Assembly: GCA_027604505.1 (NCBI GenBank) | Contig: JADIIX010000157.1 | Span: forward strand, 1-45,967 | Direction: 5' to 3' | Length of the DNA stretch: 45,967 nt | Origin: Gonapodya sp. JEL0774 | Taxonomy: Eukaryota | Shown here: piece after piece, positions 3,489 through 45,615 of the stretch | Layout: each line of letters opens with the position of its first letter | Numbering within the stretch: position 1 is the stretch's first letter | Notes under the pieces: generated by a model | What the model was told of the DNA's origin: nothing | The model's database searches: none | The model's input: only the letters and a program-made list of their open reading frames with translations | Translations under genes and position numbers: made by a program

Positions 3489-3982
3489 GGGGCGTAGGAC
3501 CACCGTGACACAGGAGCTCTCCCCCTATTCAACTCCCGAACCGATGCCTCTGTACAGTGCAGTGATGCTATCCATCAACTGATGCCACACTGCACTCCAT
3601 AGATATGCTTCCAGATTCCAGCCGCGGTCTCATCATTCTACCTCTTGTTCCCAAGTGGAGTTCTCAATATATATTGCATTCGAAAAACATTATGGCGTTT
3701 TTTCGACGGTTCAAGTACCATGCTTATGGTACAGCTCACCACGTGCATCCCACAATCAGGTTTGTGCAAGTTTTTGTTACGGACTGTGGACTGTGTTGAG
3801 AGGCCACATAATTATGTCCCCATCTGCAATTCTGCAATCCCCGCGTTTTGGACATTTCATCTCAATCACGTTCATTCCTGATCGCTTATCGCGTCTTGTC
3901 CATCCATCCATCATTCATCGCCCTTTCATCGCCGTTTCCTGCCAATACACAGTCGAAAGTCTCGCCCATTGCGCGTTCACAA

Positions 3983-7105: not shown

Positions 7106-9670
7106 TCACCTTTGATACATGAGATGACCACTCCCACCTGCTAGAGACTTCATTCCAAACGGCACCGCCAAAATTTCATCCAACAAACTATCGCGGTGGT
7201 TTCCGTGCTGATTGTCCGACTGAACAGGCCAATGGCCCGCGATCATGCCCGGGGAAATGTTCCCCGACGATATCGGAATAGTGTTACTCTTAGAATCAAG
7301 ACGAGGAGTCCACAAGTTTACGCCGCTTATGGTTTGCATAGAGAGATTGGAAGGTGCTGACATGGTGTCAGATCCAGGCAACTGTGACCCGAGGGAGAGA
7401 GAGTTTCGGTGCGAGACAACGATACCTGGGGCGGATTGAGGTTGGGGAGACGGGGTGTTGTTGATATGGATGTGCACAGGGTTCGGCGGAGTGTACTGAA
7501 TGCCTTGGCTCCCAACATTTGATGATGCGATGATGAAGTTGGATCCTCCGCTAGGTACATTCACTCGCTGAGGAACAGCTCCGACATGTTGAGTGGACAC
7601 TGGCATCATCGTCTGCAGTACAACTCTGGTGCCACCTTGCTGCACGACTGATGGAACAGAGGAAACGATGTACTGTTCCGCGTTTGAAGTGCTTGAAGAT
7701 GTCCGTCGGCTCGGAACCGCGGTTGCAGTACTGTTCCAGGAAGGGTGAAGTGTCGATTGATAGGGGCTGTTGGTTACAACCCACGAAGGCGCGGTTTGGT
7801 ATCCAGCGGTCACAGAAAGTTGTGGTAGGGTGAACTCAGCCTTGGATGGTATCGCAGCGAACTGCGCGGACGGTAGCTGAGACTGCGAGTACTGTGCCTG
7901 GCCGAACCGAGCTTGCAAGTACTGGGGAGTATGTGCTGGCTGAGGTACGGTGACAACTGCACAGACCGGTGCGGGATCTTGTGTCCATGGTGCGACTTGG
8001 TAGTGTGGTACGGCAACACTTGGTCTGCTGGAAAACTGAGTTGTACGCACTCGTTGGCTGCTTCGCGGGTCATTGTTAACATTGACAGTGAGTTGGGGGA
8101 ACGGACTTGAAGGGGAGTGGTGACCTGCATGGTGTGTGACCGAACGATCAGGAAGACCTGCGGAAGAATTGCTCATTTGCCTGCAGCTTACCGGATCCAG
8201 AAAGTACGGGCGAAGGATAATATGATCGCACATCCGTTTGCGTAGCGGGAGGGCCACCCCACAACACTTCATCCTGAATCGGAACAAACAAACGTCAGCA
8301 ATCGACGAAGTGGAGAAAACAACACATGGTGTTATCGAGCTCATATACAAACTTGAATGTCACTTGTCTGTTGCTGTGAGCGAGATTGGTCCTCGTCAAG
8401 GCTAAAGTCCGTAATCTCAAGTGTTACCTGGTCCCCGAAACGGATCGAGTTTGCATCTCTCCGGACATTGTCCAGAGACGACGAGTGAACGAAGGACGAG
8501 TCTGTTTCCTGTTGTTCCGACTGTGACTCGTTCATTTTCCGCTTTTTCGAAACAGTAGTGCCCTTGCCCATCCGAACTTGATACTCCTCTGGTGGGGAGA
8601 CAGATTGAAGTGCTGCCACGGCGTGTGTTGGCGTCCGGATAGCGCCACTTGCAAGATCGGAAAGCGAATAGTACGAGACAAGGTGGTAGATGACGTCGTT
8701 CAGTGAGATGGAAATAGTCTTTTTGATGAGGCCGTCCGGCTGCGGGAAAGGTGGATGCAAACAACCAAAGATCAACATCAATCAGAGCACAACACGGATA
8801 CTAAAGTTCTAAGCTACAAAGACTGATTACTGACCTTGTATAGAAAGGTATTGGCGCTTGCCCCTAGAAATGGCAACGGCATGTGCATTTCAGTGAGGGT
8901 TGCAAGGTCCACACCGGTGGCCCGTAGGCTCTTCTTTCTCCGCATCGCTCCGTCCGACAAATCAAAAAGGCCTTCCTCGGTAGTTTCTACTTGCGAGTGC
9001 GGCGACGGCAAGGACAACGGCAGCGTGGGGGGTGCAACAGGACTTCCCGAGTCGGCGCTTGATGGTGCTTCTCCTTCGCTCAAGTCCTCGGCGTAGTCCT
9101 TGGGTTCATGGTTTCTCAGGTTACGTTTCGGGTACATCGATGCTTGCTCGGGTGACATTGTATGTGGTGCCTCGGTTGAACCCGCTTCAGCCGGGTCCAC
9201 CACGTCGCGCGCTTGATCTCCAGGTGGGGGTCTTCGACGATCTTCACGGTGTGGGGTCACGGATACGGATATCGGGTGCTTCCGTTGAAGTTCACGGTAG
9301 ATGAGGAATTGGCCGAGGACCCGTGATGGTGACCAGGTACGACCGTCAGTCCACCGTTTGATGTTGGATTCCTATCGAGAGTCACGTGATTACCACGAAT
9401 TCTCAGTCCCACAAGTGGGCCAAGATAACTCACTTCTTCATTAAAAACAAACACTGATCCACTGCGGATGCCAACTCTCTGCGTCTCCGTCAGGCGAGAG
9501 GTGACTCGATTCAATAATCCGTCGCGGCATCCCTGCAAGACCAATAGACAGTCCTCCACAGTGTCCACAAAACCATAAAGAGTCTCGAGCTCTTCAATAT
9601 CAATGTCTGGGTAGACACAATTGTCCTCGTCGTCGACGGCCTTGCGCTTTCGTGCACTCGGGATGCGCAT
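7106..9670 (-). CDS. Gti1/Pac2 (WOPR-domain, Wor1/Ryp1-like) transcription factor
   Basis: Spliced WOPRa reads ETLYGFVDTVEDCLLVLQGCRDGLL...IRSGSVFVFNEE|ESNIKRWTDGRTWSPSRVLGQFLIYREL. WOPRb reads PDGLIKKTISISLNDVIYHLVSYY. Exons about 9670-9434, 9371-8835 and 8739-8353, then a Q/S/P-rich tail. The 3' end is uncertain and may splice on to about 6901. Confidence 0.9.
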
Positions 9671-10533
9671 GCCTGCAGGAAAATAGTGCTACCACAAGTG
9701 AAGAAAAAGGGTAAGACAATGATATAAAGAAGCGAAATGTGGGGGTGATTTAAGTTTCTTTGACGGAAACCCCATTCTTGATGGCGGTGAAAGTAGGCGT
9801 GAGGAAAGGTTGTCACTTTACTCCCTGACCGGCGGATTATCGTCACCATGCCACTTGCCAACCATTCATAAAATATTCACTAATATCATTGATTCCATAC
9901 CCCACGGCCAGAAAATCGCTCCGTTGCGATGATTCAGTGTCGGATGCTCCCTATACATGCACGCAAAACTTGCCCGGATATCCGAGCTCCGGTAAGCAGC
10001 TTCCAAATGATCAAGCAAGCTTCGTATCGTCCTGCTTCCCGCAGTTGATACTCTCCGACAGAGAAATTGCTGGGACACTTGTAACATCGGAGAAGCCCGT
10101 TGGTGGATCAGCCTGCGACCCCATCGGTAATCCACAGAGAAGAAGTCCAGGCGCAGTAGCCCAGTCCGAAGTTGATCGTCGTTGAAACCGAGGAAGTAGC
10201 CTTTTCTCTGTCTCAGCTACTCACGTTGAGAGTTTGTGTTCTGTCGAGAATAAGGTCCGGCCTGGATCCGTTTGTGCCTCACGTCGATATGAAATTTTGC
10301 CTTTGCCATTCCAACATCCACAAAGCCAGAAACTAACAAAGGCACGAATAATATTTCTGACTGCTATGAAGGAGAAAGTCGCCAAATTCCGTTTTTCTCT
10401 CTCGTACTTAGGGATTGGGGACCAATCAACTTTGTCTCCGAATTCATTGCGTCATTGAGGGGTTGCGCCTCTTCATGTGGGGCACTCACCCGTCCCAATC
10501 CTCAGTTTCCAGTCACCACAAATGTTATATGTA

Positions 10534-15206: not shown

Positions 15207-18200
15207 ATGGATTCCAGAGAACGACGGCCGGAGGAAAACACATACACCCAGAGAAGGCCGCCCTCTGTGGTGACGTATGTTGCTCCGCCGCCGATAGGGC
15301 AACCGGTTATGGTACCACCTCTACCGACGCCACCAGTGCTACCCCACTTCTTTTCGCCCTCCAGCGGTACACGGACGGTCACATCACAGTCATGGAGCTC
15401 GCCTTCCACTAGTCACGCAAGACCACTACACATGCCACACACGTATCCATCAGTGTATTCCACCTCCTCGTCGCACATCGCGCGCTCCCGAAGGAAACCG
15501 CCTACCCCATTGAAGGCGCATTTTGCCTTCACATCAATTCCACCAGTGCCGCAGGTTGTCTTACCCAAGCATCACACCTCCACCTTTATGAAGGGCTCTG
15601 CTGCCGCCAGTACAGGTGGACTGGGAACGCACCTCCTTGTTTCAAATCGAGACAGAGACAGGGCAACAGGGAACAAGGTTGGGACTCTTGTCGGTTCGTC
15701 GGCAGAATTTGGAGGGCTGATAAATGCCGGCGATGCAGACGGCGAGGTGGGTTCCTCTGGTCAGCGAGCATGAACCTCGGATAGCGCTTACTCGAACTGG
15801 AACTGGAGGTGCTCCCAGCAAACGTGATCTCGCTAGGGATGCACGTTGGCATTGTGTTTGCGATTGAGAAACTTCTAGCACCCATTCCGGATGTTGTTGG
15901 GGGCAACTAAATCGCAACAGATGAGCAATCTCAGCTGAATGGCAGAAATATCAGGCACGAACTTCGGAGCATGTCCATTCTTGCCAACTATTCGCTTGGG
16001 GACCTCACGAGTCCTTTTCCTGTCCCCATATATGTCTCGCAGTTCACCGTCGTTATTCACCCCGGTTCTCGCCTTCTCCGAGTCGGTCGGGCTCAAGATG
16101 GTATACCAAAACTTGTCCACAATGTTGTCGCTCGCAGAATTGACACGATCGGCCTGCTGCGATCTTTGCGGCTAAAATTTGGGACACTCTCCGGGAGCCT
16201 TCCTAACTTTTCCATCGAGGAATTGGCGAAGATGGTAGGTTGGAGCGAAAGCTGGGAGGATGCTGGGGATGAGTGGTATGCAGATGGGGTGACGGCAGGA
16301 TGGAACGACGGAATGAGTGATTCCAAGGGTGGAGTGGTGGTTGAAGGAAACAACGGCTATGGAGAATCTGGCTATGCTGCTGGGAACAAGAAGTGGAAAG
16401 AAAGCGACGTACAATATGGCTCTATGGACGTCGATGGACCCACTGAAAATGAAGGAGAACCTAATTCACCAACCTCAAATGATAATCCGAAATTTCCAAC
16501 GCTCTCCATCCATCACCCTACCTATCCTGCCACCCTCGCTGACCTTCATAACCATCTTCGCAATCGTGTGCGTGATCTGCGTGCCTCTGGTGTACAAGGT
16601 GCCCAAGAGAAAGTCTTGGCAGCAAACGCACGAGCAGAGACGGAATTCACAAGTATACCCGAGCTCAGTGATCGAAGAGCTGTTGCATGGACACGTTGGG
16701 GGGTCGGTGTGAGGGCCGATGGGTCTGTAGTTGGAGACGGTGGAGCTAGGGATCTGTCTACTCCAACCAAAGTGGGGGAGAGAAAGGATCGAGGGCCACC
16801 ACCAGATGTTGTAGTGGGGATCTCCGCTCTCAATCTCCCTCAATTCTCCCTCCCTCATGATCGTGATGCCGCATTTCGGGCCCTCCATGCGGCGCTCATT
16901 TCAGAAGAGCCCGAATCCCGCCTGGAATTGGTTCCGCCACTGTATGTCCTTCGCCGACCGATTCGTCATGGTGCACTCAATGCAACTTCATATGCGAGCC
17001 TTGCGCACCTCACTGGCGACATCGAGGCTATCTGGCGGAATGCCGTCACCGAGGTTGGAGTCTCGAGGAGAGATTTGAAGCGTTACAACCTGGTACTCGT
17101 GATACCAGACAAGTGCGACAAACTTTATGTGCAAACTATGGTACGCGTGGCCATGGACTTGTGTTTCCCTGCGGTGTTGTGTGTTCAGGAGAGTGCTGCT
17201 GCTTGTTTTGGTGCCGGTTTCGGGAATGGTACCTGCGTGGTCGACGTTGGAGCTGAGAAGAGCTCAGTGAGCTGCGTAGATGAAGGGATTGTGGTACAGA
17301 GCACAAGGTGAGTTGTTCACGAAGGTGGTCTGGTTGATCATTGTTGGATAAACGTGGAATCTAGCGCCCACTTCCTTTGCTTCCTTACAGAATCAACCTT
17401 AAGTACGGAGCCGATGACGTTACCTGGTATCTTTCTCACCTTCTATGGGCTTCTCACTTTCCTCATCGCTCTTTCGATCCATACCGGGTGCTCTCAGACT
17501 TCCTTCATGTCGCTGAACACGTCAAGGAGACAAACGTGAATCTGGACTTCGGAGAGCTAATCTCAACTCGCAATATGACTGTTGAAGTAAGGTCACCGGG
17601 ATGTGACGCGAGAGTGTGGACTGTCCGTTGGTGGGATGAGGGTATCTTGGCAGCAATGGTGAGAGTCTATCCACGTTTCTTTGCGGGAGAGTTTTCGACT
17701 CAGGACATTTCTTTTCAGATTTTGTTTTATCCTTCTATTATCAATCACTACCAAAAGCTGCGCGGGCTTTTGTATCCGAGATACTTCGCTGGCGGATCCT
17801 TCCCGTTGAAGGTTACGAACGATGAGGATGATGCAGTTGTCAAACTATCCGTTTTGCCGAACTACCCACCACCTTCGGTTGAACTTCTCAGTGTCGATGA
17901 GTGGGTTGCAGGTGTTGGTTCGCAGGCTCTTGGGGGTTCACGCTCTCTGAAGGAGATCGTTGAACAAGTCCGAGACTTAGCGCGCACTGCAAAGCGGAGA
18001 AAGATCAGTGAAACTCGTGAACTCGGCGTAGTAGAGTCCAAGACGGAAGATAACCGACTGGAAGGTGTGATGGCAACTTCGGAAGCGTCACACGCCGATT
18101 TGGCCACAGGGGACGAGCTGAGACCCGAGCGTACATCCTCCTCTAGCAACTCTGAAAGCCACAGATCAGCGATGCAAACCAAACCGCTTGATCTGCTTGT

Positions 18201-19086
18201 TGCGGCTCAAGAGCCTCTAGATGTCTCAATTGCACGGAGTCTCCTTCTGTACCATCGAGCCATGGCTCAATCACTGGCGGCTGGTGATCCCGCATACATC
18301 CCTGACCCAAAGCTATCCGCTCAAGTACAGATGCCCAACGCAGAACCATTTCCTGGGCAACCGCCTACTCCCCTGCATCCTTTCGCGGATGAACTTCTCC
18401 GTCGCATTGCGTCAACGGTGTTGCTTGCAGGGGATGGTGTGCAGACATCCCGCCTTTCCGAAACTTTACAAGATCGTGTGCAGCAACGCCTCAACGAAAT
18501 GATTGCAGTGCACTTGCCGCACTTATACTGGAGCGTACCACTGGTGAACCGAGATGAATGGGAGCTAGAGGAGGCTAAGGCGCGGGCGCCTGCTGAGAAT
18601 GGACAACAAAGCCTCACTTCCGAATTTCGACCTGGTGTTGTGACTGGCGTAGAAAAATCGATTGAAAATGTGACCACGTCTCTTGCCTCCAGTACCTCAA
18701 ACGGCCTTTCCAATGCGCCAAAATCAGTAAGTGCGCCAGGGGCGACACATGCACGTGGGACTGAAAGGGGTCGTGGCCGCGGCTCACATTTGAAGGGATC
18801 CAGAGGGACTTCGTCCAGTGCTAACTCATCGAAAGCGGCTGGGAACGGTGGCTACAGTTCAGTTGCAAAACCATCCGTTATTTTAGGTCCCCCGAAAGTA
18901 CTTGTTATATACCCTCCACCAAGAGACATTCCTCCAGGACATCTCGTATGGAAAGGGGCATCGGTATTGGCAAGATTAGAAATCGCGAGAGAGATGTGGA
19001 TTGGTCGAAGTGAATTTGAGAACGCCGGAATAGCGAGAGTTTGTCAGGTGGGAGTCCGGACTATCATGAAGTTAGAACAGAATTGA
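15207..19086 (+). CDS. ARP8: Actin-related protein 8 (INO80 complex subunit)
   Basis: TVVIHPGSRLLRVG; VLVIPD..KLYV; VQESAAACFGAG..TCVVDVGAEKSSVSCVDEG; INLKYGADDVT; PPRDIPPGHLVWKGASVLARLEIAREMWI. N-terminal FTSIPPV motif. Multi-exon, and a small last exon may lie beyond 19086. Confidence 0.88.
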
Positions 19087-19388: not shown

Positions 19389-22300
19389 CTACAGTTTGGG
19401 CCGAGTCGACGAAATGCCTTTTCTCTGTTTCTCCTCTTCCCATAGCCTTGCCACATCCTTCTTTAATAGACCCTTCTGAACCTTCCCATTTGGATTCCTA
19501 CAGCGGATGTCAAATGCGTCAGAGGAGAACTTCTGTTCGTTGTAGTGAAATCTCATACGAACCGAGGAATATCCTCGAACTGTATGTGCACAAACACGGG
19601 GATTTTGAATCCCGCCAGCTTGGGGCGCAAGTGTGCTAGAATGTCTTCAGGAGAGAGTTTAACATGCGTGGGCTTGGGAACAATTATTGCTGCAGGTTCT
19701 TCGCCGAGGATGCTAAAGGTGGGGGTATCGACATTTGGATACTCTTCCAACTTGTGAGAAGTAATGAAGCTTACCGATGTGGGACGCCTACAATCTGGCG
19801 CGCAGAAGGGGTGTGTGAAAAGTGAGCTTTCCGGGCAGTACAAGATCGCGAACCAAGGATATCCCACCGTGCAGTCTAGTACACCTCTATCCAATCGGAT
19901 TCCATAGATGGTGTGGCAAGTCAGGGCATTGATAGAAACAACGTCAACGAAACATATACTCACGGGTGTGTGAAAATAGCATCCTCAATCTCCTGACAAT
20001 AGATGTTTTCGCCTCCACGAATGAGCTAGAAGGATGTCCGTGAGTCAAATGTATAGTTGTCCGAGTGACGTGATCACACACCATGTCCTTGATTCGATCC
20101 TTAACAAGTCAAAACCGGGTTCCGGTAAGTTTCCGCGACACAATCTTCGATCGAGGTGAGTGAACGTACCTTGATGTAAACGTAACCGGTTTTCGCGTCA
20201 ATATACCCCACTTGAAGATGATAATAAAGCTCTCAATGACATGGCAAGATAACAGCGATTAAACAATACTGCGCATTACCATCACCAGTGCGATAGAATC
20301 CATTTGGTAGGAACGCCTGTTTCGTTGCATCCGGGTTTCTCCAATATCCTTTGATGATGTTCACTCCTCGAATCAACAGTTCACCAACTTCGCCTTTTGG
20401 GACCTCCAGCAAAGTGTCAGGGTCTTGATCCCAGCGTGGTAAGTATCGGTGGAACTTAATAGGTTTTAGCAAGTGCAAAAGGCTCACCGGCAATGATTAC
20501 TTCATTCAGAGGATGTGGTATACCTGCCGAGTCAGGGTAGTTTATATAGTCCATACCTGTTGTTTTAGGCGGTTACACAAACTTGCGCTACGAATGGTAG
20601 GTCAGAAAAACAATAAGCCTCAAAAATCTCACCAGAAATGCTAGTTGCGACAGGCGAAGCTTCTGTCATTCCCCACGCCTAGTGTTTCAGAGTTTCACGA
20701 AAACCGTCTTAAATATGAGAGAAACACTTGTACATTGCTGTAAAGCGAGCTATTCACCGTTCCTGGAGAACCTTTGAAAACCTTTGCAAAGTTCACAGCG
20801 AGCTCTGGGTGTGCGGGCGCTCCGCCGTACCCAGCCTTCATATTATCTGTCAGACGCGTAATCGCAGATTTTTCGGCTAAGCCAAGACTCACTGAAATAA
20901 AACTGCTCAAATCACGTTTGCCATTCCTTGCGTCGGGGTGTTCCACGAGCATCATGATAATTGCGGGAACAGCACTCATACCGCTCACTCTCTCCTTCTC
21001 AATCACCCGCAGAGCATCACCAGCTTCAAACTGGGAAACGGTAGGACCAAATTCATTCAGTCCGGTGTTATCTCGGACAGTCTCATTCGGCAGATCATAC
21101 CTTGTAAACCATGACAAGTTTCCCACCATGTAATGTGGTCCCTCCGAGAATGGAAACCGCGGTGACGTGGAACAGTGGAACAACGAGGAGGTTCACGCTT
21201 TGTGGGTCTTCTGGGCCCAATGGAAGTTTCGGGACTGGCATTCCCGCCCGAACTGACGAGGTAATCACATTGAACATTAAGGTCGGTGACATTGGGGTGG
21301 AGAAATGAACGGATTTCTATGCAAAAAGTAGCCATCTCACTTAAGCCGCGAATTGTCCCGAGCATAGCCACCCATTGGTTAGTGATGAAATTGCGGTGGC
21401 TGCCCAAAGCAGCTTTAGGCCGGCCAGTGGTTCCGCTGGTAGACCATTCACTATTCAGACAATGCAGCTAAAAAGAGCACCTGGTGTACACATCTCCTAC
21501 CTGGTGAAAAGGACTGACGAACCAGGCCGAAAAACGATGAGGTGAATCGTAGCAAGATTGGCTCCCATGACAGTACACTCACTTGTGGCATCGTCCTCTG
21601 GCAAAATGTTCACCGGGGTCAAGAAGTTCCTGTCTCTCTCCCCTGAGTATTTGCTCAAAACAGTTTCCCACGTTACGGTTCCAGGATACGACGCACTACG
21701 CGACGCGGGTGGTTGGGACAAAGAGCGCGCAAGAATAAATTCGGAAACACCACCGCGCTTGAGATCGGGGATGCGAGAGGCGAGACGCTCGTAACGTTCA
21801 GGATCCTAGTTGGATAAGTTCGCTGTTTACACAGATGTATGCGGAAACAATGGGGGGAGGACATCGAGAGACATACGATGATAGCAACTTTGGCGTCGGC
21901 AAGAGTGATACAGTAAGAGAGTTCGTCCGTGACTAATCGTGGGTGATAATTTGTTGGTTGGAAGTCTATTTGCGGAAAAGGCGAAAAAAAAAAAGTACCT
22001 AGCCAAGCGTTGACTGTGCCAACAGCAAAATACATTGGATGTTATTCTGTACACCGGACCAATGCGACAAGCAACAAGAAACGCTCACCCATGGCCGGGA
22101 TGGCACCCAACATTTGAGAAGCCCAAAATGCGATAATCCACTCCCTTTTGTGACACACATCAACATCATCCACAGTGCGTTGTTTGGAGGTACACAAATC
22201 TTTACTGAAGAGATTCTTCAAAGAATATTCCAGGACCATCACTTACGGGTAGTTCCTCATCGCAATGGCGATTCTGTCGCCCTTCGCGACACCATACTCC

Positions 22301-28962: not shown

Positions 28963-30598
28963 ATGTCTATTCCATTGCTCACCACCAAAAACCCATACCT
29001 TCTGATTACTAGAAGCGGCTTCGATCCATCAATCCATGTCCCGCCGGCTCTTCGTCTCCGAAGAGCACGATGGTGGATTGACCCTGGCAACACAAAGAAT
29101 TCTCGCTTCGCAGGAAAAGGGAATGAGGAGGAAGATATTGAAGGCGCACCTGTCGAAATATTAGTGACTGTGGCGGTGCATGGTAACGAGCAGGTTGGTT
29201 CCATGTACATTTGAAGCACGATCGTCGGCGATCGGGGTCCATCAGCCAGCATCACCCCGTCAAAATATGATTGAAAACATTTGTAATCATTTGCTTTCAT
29301 TTTAGTGTGGTCTTCGTGCCATAAACCACTTGCTCTCCTCTCAATTCTTCCCATCCTCTGCCAACATCAGGCACTTCCAACCCGCAGAACTGGCAGCCGA
29401 CTTTGATCTCCTGGCGTCTGTCGATGGTGATGAGACCGCTTTCCTCGCTATTGCTTCACGGACCTATTCCGTTTTGGAATCGCCCGGCCTATCTGACTGG
29501 CCGTTCGCGTGGGACTCTCTGACTGTTGTGCTCGGCAATCCTGCAGCGGTCCTTGCCAAAAAGCGATTCGTGGACACAAATTTAAACCGCACTTTCACGG
29601 CAGATATCATTGCGGATGCCGTGAAGAAGGAAGGCCTGCACTTGGCGAGCCCTAAAGCGTTTCGCTTGATCGGAGTGCCTGACCCATTGTCCACCAAATC
29701 TTATTCTCAACCTCCAATCCCTGTGGCTGAGCGCTCACTAGTCCCTCCCATCGCATACCTTATCTCCCACTCCACGTCTCTCCTTGACATCCACTCTACT
29801 AGCTCCCCGACTGCCGCGTTCTCAATTCCACACAACCACCAACTGTCACGCGCCATGTGTGCCGGATTGCCCGTGCCGTTTGTAGTAGAAGGAATGCTCG
29901 ATGTACAGGAAGGGACAACTGGGTGCTGGGCGAGGGAGGTGGGGATGGCGAAAGCCGGGGGGGTGGAATGTGGACAGCATGACGCGGAGGAGGTATGTTT
30001 CGAAACCTGACAGTTTGCGATTAAATGGGGAGCCAATGTGCAGAATCAGTTTTTGGAGACATACGAATCACAGTTTGATATTTGCCCGAAGGGAGTTGCG
30101 CGCGGAGCCCCAGAGGATCCAATCGGAAACCCAGGGTCATTGTTCCGTAGAACTTGGCTGAGAGGCTGTTATTGACAACAGAGGACATTAGATAAAACGT
30201 GTCAAGAACCTAACCACAGGATTCAGACGTCACTGTTTTATCTCACAGTCTCTTCTTTCTCCGCTTCCTATCAGTCATTCCAGAAAGCTGTAGAAATCCT
30301 CACCCACTTGCTTTTCATCGACTCCCCAGTATCTCCATCAACCACAAACACGCCACCCCGTGTTCTCCACATTTCATCATCGGTTTTCTGCCGTTCCAAT
30401 TTCCGCTACGTCAAATCTCCACCACCACCTGCATTCGCTCACATTGCAGAGGGGGAAATCGTAGCAGAGGATGAGCGAGGAAAGATTCTCTGTGATGTCA
30501 AAGGTGGAGCGTACTTGGTAATGCCTGTGGCAGAACACTTAGTACACGTGGGAGAAGAAGCGTGGGTGTGGGGCGTCCAGAAAAAGGACGTCAACTGA
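28963..30598 (+). CDS. Succinylglutamate desuccinylase/aspartoacylase (AstE/AspA, M14-like zinc hydrolase)
   Basis: VAVHGNEQ|CGLRAI (intron about 29194-29305), GNPAA...KRFVDTNLNRTF, LLDIHS and GGVECGQH contain the Zn ligands, substrate Arg/Asn and catalytic Glu. C-terminal barrel-like segment GEIVAED...YLVMP...VGEEA. Confidence 0.85.
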
Positions 30599-36370: not shown

Positions 36371-39300
36371 TCAGGGGAGAACCATAACGCAGTCTTGGTA
36401 GTTGAGAGCCAACAGGACATCTAGGATCTGATCATTTAGCACGTGATTGCCTGACACAATAATTCTTGTTTCGTTACTCGGAACTGAATTGTCTTCATCG
36501 AGAACTCTCAGCATAACTGGTTTAGTCGCTGAGGCGACCAAACTCGGTGAACGCGACATCCTATTCCCTGTCAGAGGAGACAGCAAGGGAGTTCGCCATC
36601 TGCGAACGAGCTCAACCTTTTCATTTCATGAGCTCACCTGCGGCTGCGAAGTTCAGAGCTGATTTCGTAACCTTGGGTGGTGGTGGTAGATTCGATGAAA
36701 GAAGTTCATTGTCGATTGTTTCCTTTACGTCGCTGACCCACGGAAGCTTGGCACCATCTAAATGGCGAATCACAACCTTCAGCGATAAAGCGGACCCCAA
36801 TGTTGCAACATGCTCTTCAATCAATTCGCGTCCCACAACATCCTTCTCGGTCTCGAAAATGGCGGTGAGCCACAGCTTGAAGGCCGGCGTGCCATTCTCA
36901 AGACGGGGACCATTCCTTGTGTAATACTAGTAATGAGCAAGTAATGATGGTATCAGAAAGTCAAACGCAGCGAGTAATGAAAACGACAAGACGTCTTGAA
37001 TTGAGAATACCCACGTCAATGAGTTGCATCATAGGAGTTATACCTATTCCCGAGGACACCATTCCGACGTTTCCAAAGCACAGGGATGGATGCGATAAGT
37101 TGGCCATCACAGGGTTCCGACCATCTTCACCGCCTCTCATGAACTTCACACGAATGTTGCTACCGGCCTCGGTTCGATCTAGTAAGGGGGTGAACTCTCC
37201 TTTGGTACGTATACGTACAATAAACGGTATTGATCCTTTGCAAAGACTTTTAATTGGAGTGTACGGCCGCTCGATTAGCTTCCCTTCGGCAGAAGAAAGC
37301 TGGATAGAAATGTGATCGCCAGGTGCAAATGTCACCTCAGCGCTAGGATTTGGCAGTGCAAGGGAGCATTGATAGACTTTTGATGATGCTGACGGCGAGC
37401 TTAGGACCTTCTTTTCCTTCAGTGGCAGAAGTCGGTACGCGTGATTCAGAAGCTGTAAGAGCGGCACGTCACTTGTAGTAAACGAAGGTGTCCTGGCAAC
37501 ACGTCCAGTTTCTTCTGCGAAAGACTTCGTTTTTACCACAGAAAGTCTTGCAATATCCGCTCCGGACAGATTGCCGGCTGGATCGACCTTTGCAAAAGCT
37601 TTGATCCTGCCACAGGCCAGGCCCTTAAGCCTGAAGTACTCGATGGTGAGAACAGGAAATGCCGGAGACAACATGAGAAACTCACTGAAACTCCGCGACA
37701 CGCGAGTGATTGTGCCGGCGTCCTGCTCCTGGTAACTCGTCACCGGTGAAGTATGGAGTACAATCAGTTCCAACCACTGCTTGTAGGATGCGCAGACCTC
37801 CGGGATGGTGGTTCATCCAGTCGTTACTCGCTAAATCATATACAACGTCCTTAATGACGATGTATTTCTTGCCTTTCGTCGATAATCTAACAAATCAGTC
37901 CGGACTCCGGTGAAGATTTGCTCATGCATACCCACCCTGCGCGATTTGGTCGTTGAAGTCCTTCCAAGTCATTTCCACGAGTTTTGCTATAACGGGATCT
38001 ACTGCGTTCTTGATCTTGTGCTTGGTCAGCTCGTCGTCATTAACTGCACTTTGAGTTCTCCCCAAACGCTCGTAGACCTTTCGCCGATGACCGAACATCA
38101 TCATGAAAACAGGTACAGAAAGCACGGATATTAAGTATAAAGCTTGTGCAGCCGCAACTTGCGCTGAGGTGGTCGAGATTGAATGTGTGAGCAAATCTGT
38201 GACTCCCAGGTAACCGTTCGTGAGTGCTGTGAAATAGGCAAGGTAACCAGCAACTCTAGAACGCAAAAGAAAAGATGGATTGAGTTTAATGAGAGCTTGA
38301 GGGAGCGGAGCAACACGCACATGTGAAGAGTTCGAATGTACGCTTGAAATCTTGCCAATAACTGGCCCAGTCGCAGAATTCGCACGTAGTGTACAATGAC
38401 GTATCCGGAAAGTACCGACCACGTAGTAACTCCTAATAGAATCAACCCAATTATAGGGTGAATCGACAGTTGGCCGTTTGCGATCTTCCCAAAGATGGCC
38501 AGCTTGAAGCACGGTATCAAATCGTTACCAAAATGAGTCCGCAAACAATCCATCGCGAACGTACCACACCCGATATAAATACTTCAGTATAAATAAAAGC
38601 GCACACTTGCTCGTGAAGTTCTAGCCACTTTTAAAGGATCAGGATGGTTGGAGGCCCAATCCTCAGGCAAACGTGCCGGTGCCTACATCACTCACGTTCG
38701 AATACGTGGTTGAGTTTCTGGCAACGAAAATGGCGAATGGCATCAGGACTCCAAAACACAGTAGCATCAGAGCTGTTTTGCAGATTGGCGTAATCGTCGG
38801 TACCTGATATCTTGAGCTTTAGCGACAATCACTCACATCCGTGAATAATTTGCAGCACTGGGAGCGGATCCATAGTATCGTTCGTTGACACATAAGCGCT
38901 GAAGAAATCTATTTCCATTTTCGCCTTGTTGGGACCGTGGTAAGCGATACTTCTGTGTGATAGCGACCAAGCATACCTATCACAGTAAGGGATGGGATAA
39001 TCAACCAGTGCATCATACACTCAAGATAGTGATCAGTACTTACGTGACCGTAGTGATTCCTGGAGAAATATCGTTGTCGTTTGGATCCCCTGTCACTAAC
39101 TTTCGGGAAAATCCAACGACCTTGAGCCACGTCGTGTCCCCCTTCTTAGAAGTAAGGTCAACGAAATTCTCGACACTGCTGGAACCACCGAGATCAATGT
39201 CCTGGGAAGGAACTGCAAACGCCGTTGACTTGCGATCACTGATTCCACCAACTCCATTGTTCAAATCTGGTTCGTAAGCATAGATATCTTGAGAAGGCAT

Positions 39301-40891
39301 GCCGCTACCAATTCCAAACGCGAACCATCCTAAGAAATTTACAACTCAGTCAAAGTGTTAACTCGATAAAACAGACACCGACTCGCCTGTTGTCGCTCCA
39401 TATACCTCGAAGTCAATGTACCCGGCGGCCTCATGTATCTGCCATCGCAACATAATGTAACTTCCTAGCCTGACTGATTTCCAATCACCATCCGTTTCAA
39501 CAGTCAAGGTGGCGTCCAAGGCCGAGCTCAGACGTCGCACGCGAGAAGTTGCGTCACCAACGACAGTCACATTATTGGCCGAGTTCAAAGTCGCGCCCCG
39601 CTCCAAAAGCTTCTGATAAGCCGAAGTAAAATCTTGGTAGAATAAGCTGTTGTTTGCTGCATATTGTAATGATATTTCACGATAAATCGGGTCTTGCCAA
39701 AGCGCGTAGTCCGAAACAAGCATCATTAACGTGTTATCAGAGTTATTGTACTGAACTTTGGAGTTTGGATTAACCACTGCGGTCCAATTACTATTGGAGC
39801 TCACAAGCAACGTAAAGAACTCGTTTGTGAACCTAGAGAAGGTCGGGTGCTCTGAAGTGGCGAACTCCACTCCCTTTGACGATGGACTCACCTTAGCGGA
39901 TTGTGTGTCCATGGACTGAAGAAAGCGAAAGCGAAGACAAATTCATAGGAGATCACCTGCATCGACTGAGGGACAACTTACCCAATGTAACCACTTCAGA
40001 TGCTTATGTGTGTCAGTGCATTCATAATACCCGAAAACAAACTGGGAGCAGCATTTACCTTCGATCGTAATGACACCGACCCAGTGCGTGACCACCGCCA
40101 ATGACGGCCACAACCTCACGATCGTTCAATCCCATACGAGCAAAAGTCTTCCGAATTTGAGTCGCATTGTTCGCACCCGATGGTAATCGACCAGCATTCA
40201 TCGACGAGTTGTATTCTCCGGGACTTGGACGGAGGGAGAAAATTGGCACAAGCCACCCAGACGTAGTTCTTACATAGCTCAACGACATACTTGTAGTCGA
40301 TCCTTCCGCAGCGAAATGGAACTACGGGTCCACCACTTGGTTATCAAGGGTGCGGTCGCAGATGGGTGGTGTGGACGCAGCATTCGTAGTGCTAGAATCC
40401 ACCATACCTTTCATATACCGCAACCGTCCCAGCAAAAGCCCACAAATCGGCGTAACCAATTGATGGATAGGACTCCTTTATGAGTTCCAATGCGTCAATC
40501 GAGTTTTGGAGAGATACATGACCTCCGCTAGGGGGAACCAATTTCAGAGTACCCCGAGCTCCACCGGTACCGTCAACAATACTGTACGTTCCAGCGTCAG
40601 CCCTAATTGTATCATGAGTGATGGGGTTAGTATGTTCCAACTACGGTCTTGCGAACAGACATCGTGAGGCAATCCTCACGCCAGTCAAATCAACACTCAC
40701 CATGCAAGACGTACGAGTAGCGGACCCCATCCAGCGGCCACCATCCCTGCCAGACTGTTCCGTAACTCCATCCATTCTTGAGCTGACAGACCGCATATGG
40801 ACGCGCCATCCGTAAGAGTAGGTATCAAGATGACAGCTGTAAGCAAAGTTGCGATGAGAGCAATATCCCAACGGGAGTGATGCATTGTCAT
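36371..40891 (-). CDS. Five-domain redox fusion: signal peptide, class I heme-peroxidase fold, DOMON, cytochrome b561, cytochrome b5, FNR-type (cytochrome b5 reductase-like) flavin reductase
   Basis: Peroxidase: [143 protein letters not shown]. b561 His: QIIHG, WLELH, SIHPIIG, RTLH. b5: [45 protein letters not shown]. The linkers that could be read are in frame. Confidence 0.85.
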
Positions 40892-41181: not shown

Positions 41182-41925
41182 ATGAAAGTCGCTGAAGCCA
41201 CCTCAAGCCCTCCTGCTGCTAATATGATTGGCACCAGGGATGGGATGGACGTCGATCTCACAACAAATGAAACGATGATGAGACCTCGTCCACGGGCCAT
41301 GCCTGCGCTCTCAATCGACGTTACAAACGCAGTAGCACAAGCAAAGGCTCGGAATGCGCTACAGAAGGCGTTGGAGGACAATCGGTCACCAACAACCATC
41401 AATACCCTCATCAAGCAACTGCAACAAACAAGCGCACCAGCCACAAAACTTTCGTCCCTCTCTGTGCTTTCAGGCATCCTCAAGCGTAAATTTGATCCCA
41501 CCAAGTACGAGATAAACACTAGGGACCCACTGCGCTCATTGGAGTCGGTTGCAGACGCACTTCAGTGTCTTGCACCTGAGATAACCGATAATGAAATCGC
41601 AAAGGCACTTGTCGAATGCTTGCCAAATGAACTAAGGGCAAAGTATGACAAGGGTAGCATGCCTATAAGCCACTACATTGACAGGCCTGCAAGACCAGCA
41701 TCGTTGGACGATATGATACACTGGGTCATGGCACATTGCTACAACCCAGCAATAGAGCACTACTTCCAGAATGCCAAGGTGCACGGAAGTTGGCCATCAG
41801 ACAAACAAGGCAATATTGTACCAACACCAGATGTGCTTGAGGACCTCATCCACTGGCACAGGGCGATGCTCAAGTATTGGACTCCGCTTTACAATAAGAC
41901 AGCCCCCAGAGAAGCTGTTCTAAAC
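41182..41925 (+). mobile_element. Possible retroelement gag/capsid-like ORF remnant
   Basis: Intronless, A-rich ORF with a capsid-like helical pattern (DPLRSLESVADALQ...EIAKALVECLPNELRAKYD...LDDMIHWV). It switches abruptly to GC-rich unrelated sequence at about 41927. No pol or LTR seen. Confidence 0.35.
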
Positions 41926-41926
41926 C

Positions 41927-42979
41927 ATGCGGCGATCATTTCGCGCGCGCCACAACACCAACAGTGGCACCTTCGACCGCTTCGCGAACGGCGACGTGCA
42001 CCACGTGGACGGGACTCCTCCCAGAGAGTCTCACTCAGCCGCATGGCTCCGCCCTCTGCTCGACGGGTGCTGGTCCCACGAGTCTGGCGTCGTCAGGGAG
42101 CTTTGGAGGCACTTCGTGCTGTTCGCCAGCTGCGCCTCCATCTCGAACCCCTCCAAGATCCCCGACTCGCAAATTGGTCAAGTCGCAGTTTTTGAGGCCA
42201 AGGGATTCAATCGGCAGGAGGCCGACGAACTGGAGGATGCGGACAAGTTCCTGTACGCGCAGGCGCTGAGTCTCCCAAGAACCATTCGCGCATAGATGAC
42301 CATCGGTTCGTCGTCCACACAATCCAACTCTTCCGCTCGGCCCTCACCGTCCACCACCTTTTCGAGGCCGGCCCCATCAAGGGCGGCAAGTTCCCAGTGG
42401 CAAGGTTCATGGACTTCCAGCTTGATCTCCCCACGGCGAGGAAGCCCGCTGTCATCAAATCCCCAACGATATCCTATGATGAGGACATTGCCGTTGTGAT
42501 GGCCGGGCATTGGAAAGGGAGGATCTCCTTCATGTCCTTCTCGAGGAAGCTGGCGCAGTCCTCGAGGACGTCAAGCGGAGAAAGTTTCATAAAGGCCCCT
42601 GACCCACGCTACTATCAAAAGGAGTATCCAGGAGCTGGATACCAAGCTGACGCAGGTCTGTCTCGACTTCCAGTTAGCAGCATTTCTCAACATCCAGGTG
42701 TGAGCGGCAGAGAACAAGGACGACGCACGTTCTGCTCAGGCTGGTATCCCGCAGAGAATGTTTACTTTCGAAGTCAGGTGTGAAATCAACAAATGCGACC
42801 AGAAGGCGATTCTCAGATTGCACCTTGCGACAAACGCCCGACTCGAGGCATTGAAGTCCCCCCAATATGAAAAAAAGTCTGAGAGTAGGCGCAGGTCTGG
42901 CAATGACGCTGTGCGGAGGCACGCTCAAGCGCAATTTAACCTCGGGGTGTGCTGCGAGCAAGGCAGGGGCGTTGAGTGA
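41927..42979 (+). pseudogene. Mosaic of broken gene fragments including a truncated Sel1-like repeat
   Basis: GC-rich coding-like segment with an apparent frameshift near 42270. It is followed by ATIKRSIQELDTKLTQVCLDFQLAAFL with an in-frame TGA at 42701, and by HAQAQFNLGVCCEQGRGVE* (Sel1-like consensus) at 42920-42979. Confidence 0.5.
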
Positions 42980-43291: not shown

Positions 43292-44840
43292 CTACAGCTT
43301 TAATACGGTCTTTTGAGATGCCTTCCATCCATCCAATACGTTGTTTTTGGGATTGTCCAGCCTGGCCTGGGACGCTTCGTACAGCCTTGGAATACCGGTA
43401 CTCTTGAAGTCTGCGCCTTCCATCACCATTGACGCCACACCCTTTGCGGATAAAAAGATCTGCGGCATGCCATGGCCGGTGAACCCGGCAAGCATAAACT
43501 GGTTTTGTCTCCCGGGAACGACTCCAACATGCGGTGTTGAGTCCGTGGAGTAACCCATAACTGAGACACACCAACGTTAACAACGATCTCACAACGGTAG
43601 CCAAGATAGATTGACTTACTTCCAGTCCACACCTTGTCCGTGTACGCGCCGGTATCTTCCCAACCCTTGAAGACTTTTTGCATGTACCCATCAAAGTAAT
43701 GCTTCGCCTCCTCAATCAAATTATCGTCATTGACATTGCCATACCACTTCTCCAGGTCATGGTAGTACTCTGACCTCGCACCTCCCACAACAATGCTGCC
43801 GTCCAGTCTAGGGATGAGGTATTCATACTTACTTTCCGACCATCGAATGATGTAAGAGTACGGCAGCAACGGAGCGGGAGTCTTGCCAGGGTGGATATGA
43901 CTGCATATTCCCCGCACAGGAACAATCTTTTCTGAGAACTCAGGCAGGATCGACGAAGTGTAGCCGTTGGTGGCGTACACAATGTTCTTAGCGCGCACAG
44001 TTCCCCGCGGCGTTGTGAGAGTGAGGAATCCATCTGCATCGGGCTTTTCTGTGACATTGGTCACCGGTGTGTGTGTTTGTAGGTTCACTCCAGCGGCGAG
44101 TGCCTTTTCGAGTAGCCCGATAACAAGCTTGTATGGCCACAGGTGACCGGCTGTGTATGAGAGACAACCTTTGGCTCCCTTGACGCCTGACAGCTGGTTC
44201 TGGTCAGCAATCTAAATTGACGTGATTTAGACAGGCTAACTTACTTGCTCCGCCTCTGCACCTTTTGCAAAATACACATCGCCCATCAATTTGACGCCAT
44301 GTTTCCTCAGCAACTCAACTCCAGACCTCATCTGCTCGCAGATGGACTCGGTCATCAATGCGTCGACAGCACGTGTATACACCAAGTCACAGTCAAATCC
44401 CTCAGCTTCAATAGCCTTCTTCACAGCCGCGAGGTTCTCGGCCTCGAAGTTTGCGCACTCGCCGGCAACCTCAACGCCATGGGTCAGGGCAAGAGTTGAA
44501 GGCCGGTTGTAAGGGTCAGGTTTCAAATGGCCACCTACATCAGCTCGAGATTAGCATTGGATCGATATGAAATATGCAAAGAAGTACCATTTCGGCCAGT
44601 AGCCCCAGAGCAAGCCTCTCTCGCCTCAAGAATCACAATATTCGGTGGCGGGTTCCCCTTTGCCTTGCAGATGTTGAAGATGTGGTAGACCGTCGAGACG
44701 CCTGCATATCCGGCACCAATGACGGCAATGTCGACTTGTGAGGGGATGTCAGAGGTAGACCGGTGATTGTCGAGTGGATGCGGACATGACCTCCAGAAAG
44801 AGGTCGTGGAGTTCGGAACCGGGAGCGGGGAGGGCGGCAT
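43292..44840 (-). CDS. FAD-dependent oxidoreductase, DAO family (PuuB-like)
   Basis: TTSFWR; DIAVIGAGYAGVS; ILEAREACSGATGRNG|GHLKP; AGHLWPYKL; VYATNGYT; IVPVRG; EYLIPRLDGSIVVGG; WTG|IMGYSTDSTPHVG; LAGFTGHGMP. Exons 44840-44588, 44534-44245, 44193-43620 and 43560-43292. Confidence 0.93.
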
Positions 44841-45615
44841 GGCGCTTATCCGTATCCAGAGTTTCTTAATTGGAGAGGGATACAACGAAGCAATGTGATG
44901 TGGCGAAGCTCTCATCAAAGCCCCCTGACCTGCTGTAGTAAGGACGCCATCCCCGCTTGCTAAATGTAAACCCGGCTTCACCCGAGGTTGCCTGGATTGG
45001 TTGGGTACAGGTTTCGTTCTTCAGTGGTCAATATACATTGTCCTTCATTTCCTGTCAATTGCGGATGAATTGTATTCAATCAAGACCCCAACTCGCTCCC
45101 TTGCCTACCCAACCACCCCACACTTTTGACCACTCTCCTGCTAATAGAAATTGTCAAGAGGCAATTAGGAAGTACTGCAAAACTTGTTAGAAAACTGTGT
45201 AGCGATGCATTTCAGTCAGGAGACAATTCAATTTAAGGTACAGTAGGTCGAGGAACTGAAAATGTGTGCGAGGAGTAAGTTGACGCACTTTTGCTCGGTG
45301 TAATGCCAGAAGAGGGACTGGCCTAAGCACAAGACTGGTTGTGTTGCGCCGGATGCGTGAACGGGATAGCAGTTCGCGCGGGCGTCGTCGGGACAGGACT
45401 TATAGAGAAGCATCGTTACCAGGGAGCACATCTATAACCTGTACATAGGTATGCATCGAGATACTACGAAGATGTGCGAGAGATTTCAAAAACTGGGGCC
45501 GGAGATATGTGGAGAGACTCGGAAGTCCCAGCAGAACGTACGAGGGTGTTCGAGACCAACACTAATCAACAACCGTAACCTTTTACCACGATATCAACAC
45601 TTATCGAGATCAACG

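What the first reader, a model, noticed from the sequence alone, without database searches (positions are those of the whole stretch)
36371..40891. Single-chain trans-membrane electron wire: peroxidase-fold, DOMON, cyt b561, cyt b5, flavin reductase
Seen: motifs of five redox domains lie in order on one strand and join in frame by GT-AG splicing. The peroxidase end (QKLLERG) runs into the DOMON start within one ORF (39358-39912), and the b561 end runs into the b5 start within ORF 37922-38512. Known: DOMON-b561 (CYBDOM) proteins move electrons across membranes, and b5 plus FNR modules draw them from NAD(P)H. Inference: a signal peptide plus about 5 TM helices puts the peroxidase fold and DOMON outside the cell or in a lumen, with b5 and FNR in the cytosol. 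That gives NAD(P)H > FAD > b5 > 2 b561 hemes > DOMON heme > terminal heme. I know of no characterised protein with a CcP/APX-type domain wired to its own reductant this way.
Basis: partly seen in the sequence, partly recalled or inferred. Interest (0 to 1): 0.95.

Follow-up and report, generated by a model that had tools for sequence, protein, structure and literature searches.

The report
Fungal electron wire with swapped peroxidase
This fungal gene joins five redox domains in one predicted membrane protein that likely passes electrons from inside the cell to a peroxidase-type haem outside; relatives in many fungi and protists carry an unrelated peroxidase at the same spot, and this copy lacks the usual catalytic histidine.

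Summary
The fusion is real. Seventeen exons give one open 1,144-residue frame: signal peptide, cytochrome c peroxidase (CcP) fold, DOMON, five-helix cytochrome b561, cytochrome b5 and b5-reductase. Every domain junction lies inside an exon. A paralog has the same order, and a Gonapodya prolifera fragment (77% identical) confirms the peroxidase splicing. One intron is GC-AG.

First, the wire belongs to a wide family in chytrids, blastoclads and protists: 56 of 156 rows carry an animal-type peroxidase at the tip, and only the two Gonapodya paralogs carry a CcP fold on the full wire. Two unrelated peroxidase folds thus cap one wire. Second, the distal histidine is Ala here and Val in the orthologue, while the proximal haem site is intact; the paralog keeps it.

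All eight wire haem ligands are conserved, and charge bias and shared sequons support opposite-side topology. Best guess: NAD(P)H-driven reduction of extracellular peroxide (0.45). Rivals are O2 activation, DUOX-like ROS use and ferric reduction. No transcript or activity data for this gene. Seven paper searches found no description. The scan noted the same five-domain design earlier in Basidiobolus.

The parts
36371..40891 (-). Whole gene, 17 exons, 1,144 aa. Exons: 40891-40701, 40602-40408, 40335-40291, 40223-40059, 39993-39982, 39915-39892, 39832-39387, 39329-39044, 38976-38837, 38772-38696, 38627-38565, 38502-38321, 38255-37936, 37872-37686, 37630-37015, 36926-36638, 36567-36371
   Evidence: open frame, splice signals; paralog and orthologue agreement
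40805..40891 (-). Predicted signal peptide, residues 1 to about 29
   Evidence: hydrophobic stretch 9-27; cleavage site judged by eye, no predictor run
39595..40783 (-). Class I (CcP-type) haem peroxidase fold, residues about 37-290. Kept: Arg61, Trp64, His189, Trp205, Met247, Met248, Asp252 (yeast CcP Arg48, Trp51, His175, Trp191, Met230, Met231, Asp235; yeast numbering recalled). Five N-glycosylation sequons
   Evidence: model of the orthologue P0008 pLDDT 94, TM about 0.9 to yeast CcP
40599..40601 (-). Codon at the distal His position reads Ala65 (Val in orthologue P0008; His in paralog P0002)
40518..40520 (-). Codon at the position of the distal Asn (CcP Asn82) reads His92, also His in P0008
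39330..39386 (-). GC-AG intron (57 nt) within DOMON
   Evidence: the 33 residues it preserves align with P0002, while the public model P0001 drops them
38901..39486 (-). DOMON domain, residues 327-480, haem ligands Met370 and His468
   Evidence: paralog model matches dopamine beta-hydroxylase DOMON, Z 16.6, rmsd 2.2, 139 aligned
38090..38870 (-). Cytochrome b561-type domain, five membrane helices, His500, His532, His563, His608
37600..37972 (-). Cytochrome b5 domain, residues about 704-788, His738 and His771
36374..37437 (-). Cytochrome b5 reductase-type FAD and NAD(P)H domains, residues about 843-1144
   Evidence: paralog model vs yeast Cbr1 Z 27.0, rmsd 2.2, 242 aligned

Best explanation
The window holds one 17-exon gene whose predicted membrane protein likely carries electrons from cytosolic NAD(P)H through FAD and four haems to a CcP-fold haem outside the cell, where they would reduce peroxide to water. 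Shown: the frame, domain order, all cofactor ligands, five helices in the paralog model. Inferred: topology (peroxidase and DOMON outside or lumenal; b5 and reductase cytosolic); route FAD > b5 > inner b561 haem (His532/His608) > outer haem (His500/His563) > DOMON haem (Met370/His468) > peroxidase haem, with DOMON standing in for cytochrome c at the Trp191-type entry. The paralog, which keeps the distal His, would do this with H2O2. This copy, with Ala and His at the distal His and Asn positions, would be slow with H2O2 and more likely handles another oxidant (organic peroxide, peroxynitrite) or uses a rearranged pocket.
For: Eight wire ligands present in 73-76 of 78 rows each, all eight in 64 of 78. 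Family mean Lys+Arg per loop: 2.2, 4.1, 3.3 on the predicted inside against 0.8, 0.6, 0.4 outside. All 5 peroxidase-domain sequons shared with the orthologue and 3 with the paralog; mean 1.1 per domain in 54 other class I domains; none of 4 cytosolic-side sequons shared with the paralog. Two non-homologous peroxidase folds sit at the same position on the same wire, and the animal-type version is on one assembled transcript in Rigifila (P0043). The CcP-type proximal Trp and Met-Met pair, the entry path for electrons from a haem protein (recalled), are kept. Recalled redox potentials: b561 and DOMON haems about +80 to +190 mV readily reduce Compounds I and II but not ferric CcP (about -190 mV) or O2.
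Against: The distal His, described as invariant in the superfamily and needed to deprotonate H2O2 (PMC5571214, passages), is absent here and in the orthologue. In the animal-type relatives only 20 of 44 keep His at that column, against 38 of 44 for the proximal His. The proximal Trp is not specific (61 of 63 class I domains). Some members have no peroxidase at all (P0004, P0058), so the wire has another outlet. The Cys of the reductase's C-terminal motif is Ser in both paralogs. Redox potentials are recalled from other proteins, not measured.
Confidence: 0.45

Rival explanations
1. O2-activating enzyme. The wire reduces the terminal haem to ferrous, O2 binds, a second electron gives the peroxo state and then Compound I, which oxidises an outside substrate; P450 logic across a membrane, needing no distal His.
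For: Distal His lost with proximal His kept in this gene and its orthologue, in 24 of 44 animal-type tips, and in class I domains of DOMON-bearing proteins P0024 and P0028 (Gln or Arg), against 50 of 54 His in class I domains without DOMON. An apolar CcP pocket raised peroxygenase activity 34-fold in a triple Ala mutant (PMC3733812, passages).
Against: Reduction of ferric CcP by a DOMON haem would be uphill by about 0.3 V on recalled potentials. The paralog and P0138 keep the His. Ten of the 44 animal-type tips have a His one residue earlier, which may substitute. The losses are few independent events; kinship was not corrected for.
Confidence: 0.2
2. DUOX-like. The wire makes superoxide or H2O2 at the outer or DOMON haem, and the tethered peroxidase uses it to oxidise or cross-link wall or adhesive material; no direct electron transfer to the peroxidase.
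For: Same overall layout as DUOX (PMC3591440, passages), and most relatives carry the same peroxidase superfamily as DUOX. [quoted passage not shown]
Against: Characterised b561 and CYBDOM proteins reduce ferric chelates or monodehydroascorbate; their recalled potentials are too high for efficient O2 reduction. A His-less peroxidase would use released H2O2 poorly.
Confidence: 0.15
3. NAD(P)H-dependent ferric (or other metal chelate) reductase of CYBDOM type, with the peroxidase fold as an accessory haem-binding or structural domain.
For: CYBDOM proteins are ferric reductases. Peroxidase-free members with signal peptides exist, one being the sister of the two CcP-tipped proteins (P0004). Human DUOX1 keeps a haem-free peroxidase domain (PMC7794343, passages).
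Against: The domain keeps distal Arg and Trp and the whole proximal triad and is 77% identical between two species, unlike the DUOX1 domain that lost its haem ligand. No iron permease or ferroxidase appeared among the 22 window ORFs scanned, a weak point in a fungus.
Confidence: 0.15
4. Separate neighbouring genes, or a decaying copy.
For: The orthologue P0008 is recorded only as a partial 233-residue peroxidase, and its wire half was not found. The distal His is lost.
Against: All four junctions are inside exons with no stop; a paralog on another contig has the same order; the His loss is shared by two species with different residues.
Confidence: 0.05

Closest known systems
Dual oxidase (DUOX1/2, C. 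elegans BLI-3)
   Same: One chain with an outside peroxidase-type domain, a two-haem membrane domain and a cytosolic FAD/NADPH domain (PMC3591440, PMC7794343; passages).
   Different: DUOX uses an animal-type peroxidase, a six-helix ferric reductase domain and EF hands and releases H2O2. Here the parts are a class I fold, DOMON, five-helix b561, b5 and a b5-reductase; no EF-hand or ferric reductase Pfam hit.
CYBDOM proteins (Arabidopsis CRR and HYP1, mouse SDR2)
   Same: Signal peptide, DOMON with Met/His, five helices with four His (PMC10784552, passages).
   Different: They draw on ascorbate and end at DOMON. This protein adds its own b5 and flavin reductase inside and a peroxidase fold outside.
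Yeast cytochrome c peroxidase and trypanosomatid hybrid A APx-CcP
   Same: Fold (TM about 0.9, 38-42% identity; best sequence hit E 4e-50), distal Arg and Trp, proximal His-Asp-Trp, Met-Met.
   Different: Those are intracellular single domains with distal His and Asn. This one has a signal peptide, five sequons, Ala and His at those positions, and a fused donor chain.
NCB5OR (b5 reductase 4) and the b5/b5R end of nitrate reductase
   Same: b5 followed by a b5-reductase fold.
   Different: They are soluble and cytosolic; here the module is fused to a membrane cytochrome.
Hybrid B fungal peroxidases
   Same: Secreted PF00141 domain with a C-terminal fusion, present in chytrids and Gonapodya (PMC5571214, PMC4232752; passages).
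   Different: Their fusion partners are carbohydrate-binding domains; their distal His is invariant. No reference hybrid B sequence was in my tree.
Unnamed animal-peroxidase/DOMON/b561/b5/reductase family (found here)
   Same: Same wire, same ligands; 56 of 156 rows; ESM Atlas cluster of 179 members, score 0.80, a lead only.
   Different: The tip is PF03098 there and PF00141 here. No paper on the family was found in my searches.

Membership tests
Class I peroxidase (CcP) | Peroxidase-catalase fold | tested here: met
   Pfam PF00141; orthologue model TM about 0.9 to yeast CcP
Class I peroxidase (CcP) | Proximal His, Asp, Trp and the Met-Met pair | tested here: met
   His189, Asp252, Trp205, Met247/248
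Class I peroxidase (CcP) | Distal Arg and Trp | tested here: met
   Arg61, Trp64
Class I peroxidase (CcP) | Distal His with its Asn partner | tested here: not met
   Ala65 and His92; orthologue Val and His; paralog keeps the His
Class I peroxidase (CcP) | Intracellular, unglycosylated, no signal peptide (PMC6937255) | tested here: not met
   hydrophobic N-terminus, five conserved sequons
Class I peroxidase (CcP) | Haem binding and H2O2 turnover | not testable with these tools
   needs protein
CYBDOM | DOMON with Met and His ligands | tested here: met
   Met370, His468; 74 and 75 of 78 rows
CYBDOM | Five membrane helices with four His | tested here: met
   paralog model, mapped to this protein; His in 73-75 of 78 rows
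CYBDOM | Structural match to a solved cytochrome b561 | tested here: inconclusive
   fold lists were filled by the reductase domain
CYBDOM | Ascorbate-dependent ferric reduction | not testable with these tools
   needs assay
Cytochrome b5 / b5 reductase | Two b5 His ligands; FAD motif Arg-x-Tyr-Thr; glycine-rich NAD(P) loop; fold | tested here: met
Cytochrome b5 / b5 reductase | Cys-Gly-Pro motif near the C-terminus | tested here: not met
   Ser-Gly-Asn in both paralogs; Cys in 28 of the 36 rows that reach the column
DUOX | Animal-type peroxidase domain (PF03098) | tested here: not met
   PF00141 instead
DUOX | Six-helix ferric reductase domain and EF hands | tested here: not met
   five helices of b561 type; no such Pfam hit at E<=1
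DUOX | NADPH-dependent H2O2 release | not testable with these tools
   needs assay
Hybrid B peroxidase | C-terminal carbohydrate-binding domain | tested here: not met
   C-terminal part is a redox chain
Hybrid B peroxidase | Placement in the hybrid B clade | not tested
   no named reference sequences in the tree; best PDB hits are CcP and hybrid A

The most novel reading that the evidence does not exclude
An undescribed family of eukaryotic surface enzymes delivers cytosolic NAD(P)H electrons directly to a peroxidase-fold haem, and has done so with two unrelated peroxidase folds. Copies that dropped the distal His, such as this one, activate O2 at that haem and act as self-sufficient extracellular oxygenases: a P450-like enzyme spanning the membrane, built from a CcP scaffold.
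Probability: 0.2. Interest if true: 0.92.

Novelty: new variant of a known kind. Interest (0 to 1): 0.7.

Why it matters
Secreted haem peroxidases normally rely on diffusible H2O2 and diffusible donors. A peroxidase wired to cytosolic NAD(P)H would be a new way for fungi and protists to control redox chemistry at their surface. The same wire capped by two unrelated peroxidase folds, or by none, is a natural experiment on what the wire is for, and a convergent parallel to DUOX. The pair of paralogs, one with and one without the distal His, makes the terminal chemistry directly testable. It also supplies the b561 field with a case where the donor is fused rather than ascorbate.

Tried and rejected
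No whole genome was held. RNA search: no RNA holder listed; not evidence either way, so no reads were laid. Search for a shorter wire half of the G. prolifera orthologue: none among 7,996 candidates scored; that search is word-limited. Complex prediction of the orthologue's peroxidase domain with the paralog's DOMON and two haems: no answer, score 0.00, alignments not used. Fold searches of the full paralog model did not list a cytochrome b561 chain, and a sequence search with P0039 gave no PDB match; neither excludes the fold. The peroxidase part of the full model was not predicted (pLDDT under 50) because the alignment held the other peroxidase there. ESM Atlas with animal peroxidases excluded gave no usable hit. 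The default tree did not finish and was replaced by FastTree and a 20-row IQ-TREE run. Strict nesting of the CcP-tipped proteins inside fungal animal-type ones was not established (AU p 0.20). A 45-nt version of intron 13 was dropped for the 63-nt one that agrees with P0001 and P0002. The public model P0001 was rejected as the gene structure: it lacks most of exons 3-6, 33 DOMON residues and exon 17. A review sought by a recalled PMC id was not held. A likeness to Leishmania pseudoperoxidase (distal His lost) is recalled only; it was not among the listed PDB rows and no primary paper was read (listing only).
Full report
Observation. The region 40891-36371 on the minus strand is a spliced eukaryotic gene. 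From the sequence, three-frame translations and candidate acceptors I built a 17-exon model. It gives one frame of 1,144 residues with a single stop (a first version with a shorter intron 13 gave 1,150, and searches use that numbering, six higher after residue 716). Introns are 55-98 nt; 15 are GT-AG and one (39386-39330) is GC-AG. All four domain junctions lie inside exons, so a split into separate genes would have to cut within a domain.

Independent support for the model. A public gene model of this very locus, P0001 (992 aa, labelled by its source as a Gonapodya protein), also joins the domains but is mis-spliced in places. A paralog on another contig, P0002 (1,069 aa), has the same order; it aligns with the DOMON residues kept by the GC-AG intron and with exon 17, both absent from P0001. 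A partial G. prolifera protein, P0008, matches residues 56-290 at 77% and so confirms introns 1-6, including two micro-exons. P0008 is not shown to be fused. No transcript evidence exists for this gene.

Domains and ligands. Pfam gives peroxidase, DOMON, Cyt-b5 and FAD_binding_6, with b561 weak; b561 is matched by 24 of 44 aligned relatives. DOMON Met and His, four b561 His and two b5 His are each present in 73-76 of 78 wire sequences and all eight in 64 of 78 (misses include fragments). An AlphaFold model of the paralog shows DOMON, five membrane helices, b5 and reductase at good confidence. Its reductase matches yeast b5 reductase (Z 27.0) and its DOMON matches dopamine beta-hydroxylase (Z 16.6). 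The His spacing agrees with the pairs reported for Arabidopsis CRR (PMC10784552, passages).

Topology (inferred). A hydrophobic N-terminus and five helices put peroxidase and DOMON on one side and b5 and reductase on the other. Across the family the loop after helix 1, the loop after helix 3 and the tail average 2.2, 4.1 and 3.3 Lys+Arg, against 0.8, 0.6 and 0.4 for the other side. All five peroxidase-domain sequons are shared with the orthologue and three with the paralog; 54 other class I domains average 1.1 sequons.

The family. A profile search of 1.84 billion representatives returned 150 rows; with five cluster members and my model that made 156 rows. Of these, 56 have animal-type peroxidase, DOMON, b561, b5 and reductase; 10 have the four-domain wire with no peroxidase detected (some are fragments); 3 have a class I peroxidase on the full wire, namely P0001, P0002 and my model (own profiles; checked by Pfam on 34 rows). 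I looked up names for 30 of the 150. Animal-type carriers include Polychytrium, Cladochytrium, Spizellomyces, Lobulomyces, Blyttiomyces, Boothiomyces, Blastocladiella, Sorochytrium, Hyaloraphidium, the alga Chrysoparadoxa and Rigifila, the last from an assembled transcript. Clustering at 50% identity could hide close CcP-tipped orthologues.

History of the tip. On the wire tree the two CcP-tipped proteins group with P0004, a G. prolifera protein with a signal peptide and no peroxidase (SH 100; 100/99). This trio joins chytrid animal-type rows at 84/90 in the 20-row tree (58 of 78 rows left out), but a tree with the trio as their sister is not rejected (AU p 0.20), and the root is assumed. Since distant protists carry the animal type, parsimony favours loss of that tip in the Gonapodya line and later gain of a CcP duplicate. 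G. prolifera is listed with 8 CcP genes (PMC6937255, table row). The order of events is inference.

The missing histidine. The peroxidase domain has the CcP fold (orthologue model pLDDT 94; TM about 0.9) with distal Arg and Trp and the full proximal set. The distal His is Ala here and Val in the orthologue, and the Asn that orients it is His in both. One review calls both residues invariant in the superfamily (PMC5571214, passages). The paralog keeps the His. Of 63 class I domains, 52 have it: 50 of 54 without DOMON, and 2 of 9 among DOMON-linked domains plus P0008 (one of the nine is truncated there). Among 44 animal-type tips, 20 have His at the distal column, 10 have a His one residue earlier, and 38 keep the proximal His. 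These counts are sequences, not independent events.

Mechanism. The wire most likely runs NAD(P)H > FAD > b5 > two b561 haems > DOMON haem. For the outlet I favour reduction of peroxidase Compounds I and II, i.e. an NAD(P)H peroxidase working across the membrane (0.45): recalled potentials make that step downhill and make reduction of the ferric haem or of O2 uphill, and the CcP-type electron entry is kept. Against it, this copy should react slowly with H2O2; CcP triple mutants including His52 do so and gain peroxygenase activity (PMC3733812, passages). Rivals: O2 activation at a wire-reduced haem (0.2), DUOX-like ROS production (0.15), ferric reduction with an accessory domain (0.15), split or decaying gene (0.05). 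None of this chemistry is shown.

Comparison and novelty. It works most like DUOX in layout but fails DUOX membership; it meets the sequence features of CYBDOM but extends it at both ends; its tip fails CcP membership at the distal His and by location. Seven full-text searches aimed at the architecture listed no paper describing it. I read passages only of PMC3591440, PMC9524095, PMC5571214, PMC10784552, PMC3733812, PMC4232752, bioRxiv 10.1101/851881, PMC6937255 and PMC7794343; no supplements were opened, and these or RedoxiBase may list the peroxidase domain. Subscription papers, including the original DOMON surveys, were not searchable.

Verdict. Real, well supported as a single-chain wire, and unusual: a new variant of the peroxidase-on-a-trans-membrane-chain kind, within an apparently unstudied family.

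Noticed in passing
P0138 and cluster members P0156-P0159 (Chytriomyces): Signal peptide, class I peroxidase with distal His, DOMON-like domain and one membrane helix, but no b561: a second CcP-DOMON fusion in chytrids. Its peroxidase falls near the Gonapodya domains (SH 89).
   Followed up: partly
P0024 (Prymnesium parvum) and P0028 (metagenome): Several class I peroxidase domains interleaved with DOMON domains; the distal His is Gln or Arg. P0024 also has a multicopper oxidase piece and a b561 hit and may be a merged gene model.
   Followed up: partly
P0005 (4,632 aa), P0006, P0093, P0110: Arrays of up to 20 DOMON domains, in P0005 ahead of b561, b5 and FAD domains: possibly a long extracellular haem wire.
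   Followed up: no
P0010 (1,958 aa): Animal-peroxidase wire followed by a protein kinase domain; may be a real fusion or a merged model.
   Followed up: no
window 41182-42195 (+) and 42196-42783 (+): Intronless 337-aa ORF head-to-head with the wire gene, 290 bp from its start, then a 195-aa frame; no Pfam hit. Unexplained; a mobile-element remnant is a guess.
   Followed up: no
window 43423-45020 (-): FAD-dependent oxidoreductase of the DAO family.
   Followed up: no
window 8814-9688 (-): Gti1/Pac2 family regulator.
   Followed up: no
window 15911-19086 (+), 20695-21467 (-), 29306-30010 (+): Actin-related protein, AMP-binding enzyme, and succinylglutamate desuccinylase/aspartoacylase-type domain.
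   Followed up: no
window 3812-6564 (+): Long Thr/Ser/Asn-rich, mucin-like frames with strong C skew; no Pfam hit.
   Followed up: no
P0001 and P0002: Both public gene models are mis-spliced around the peroxidase micro-exons; P0002 also lacks an N-terminal signal peptide in its record.
   Followed up: partly
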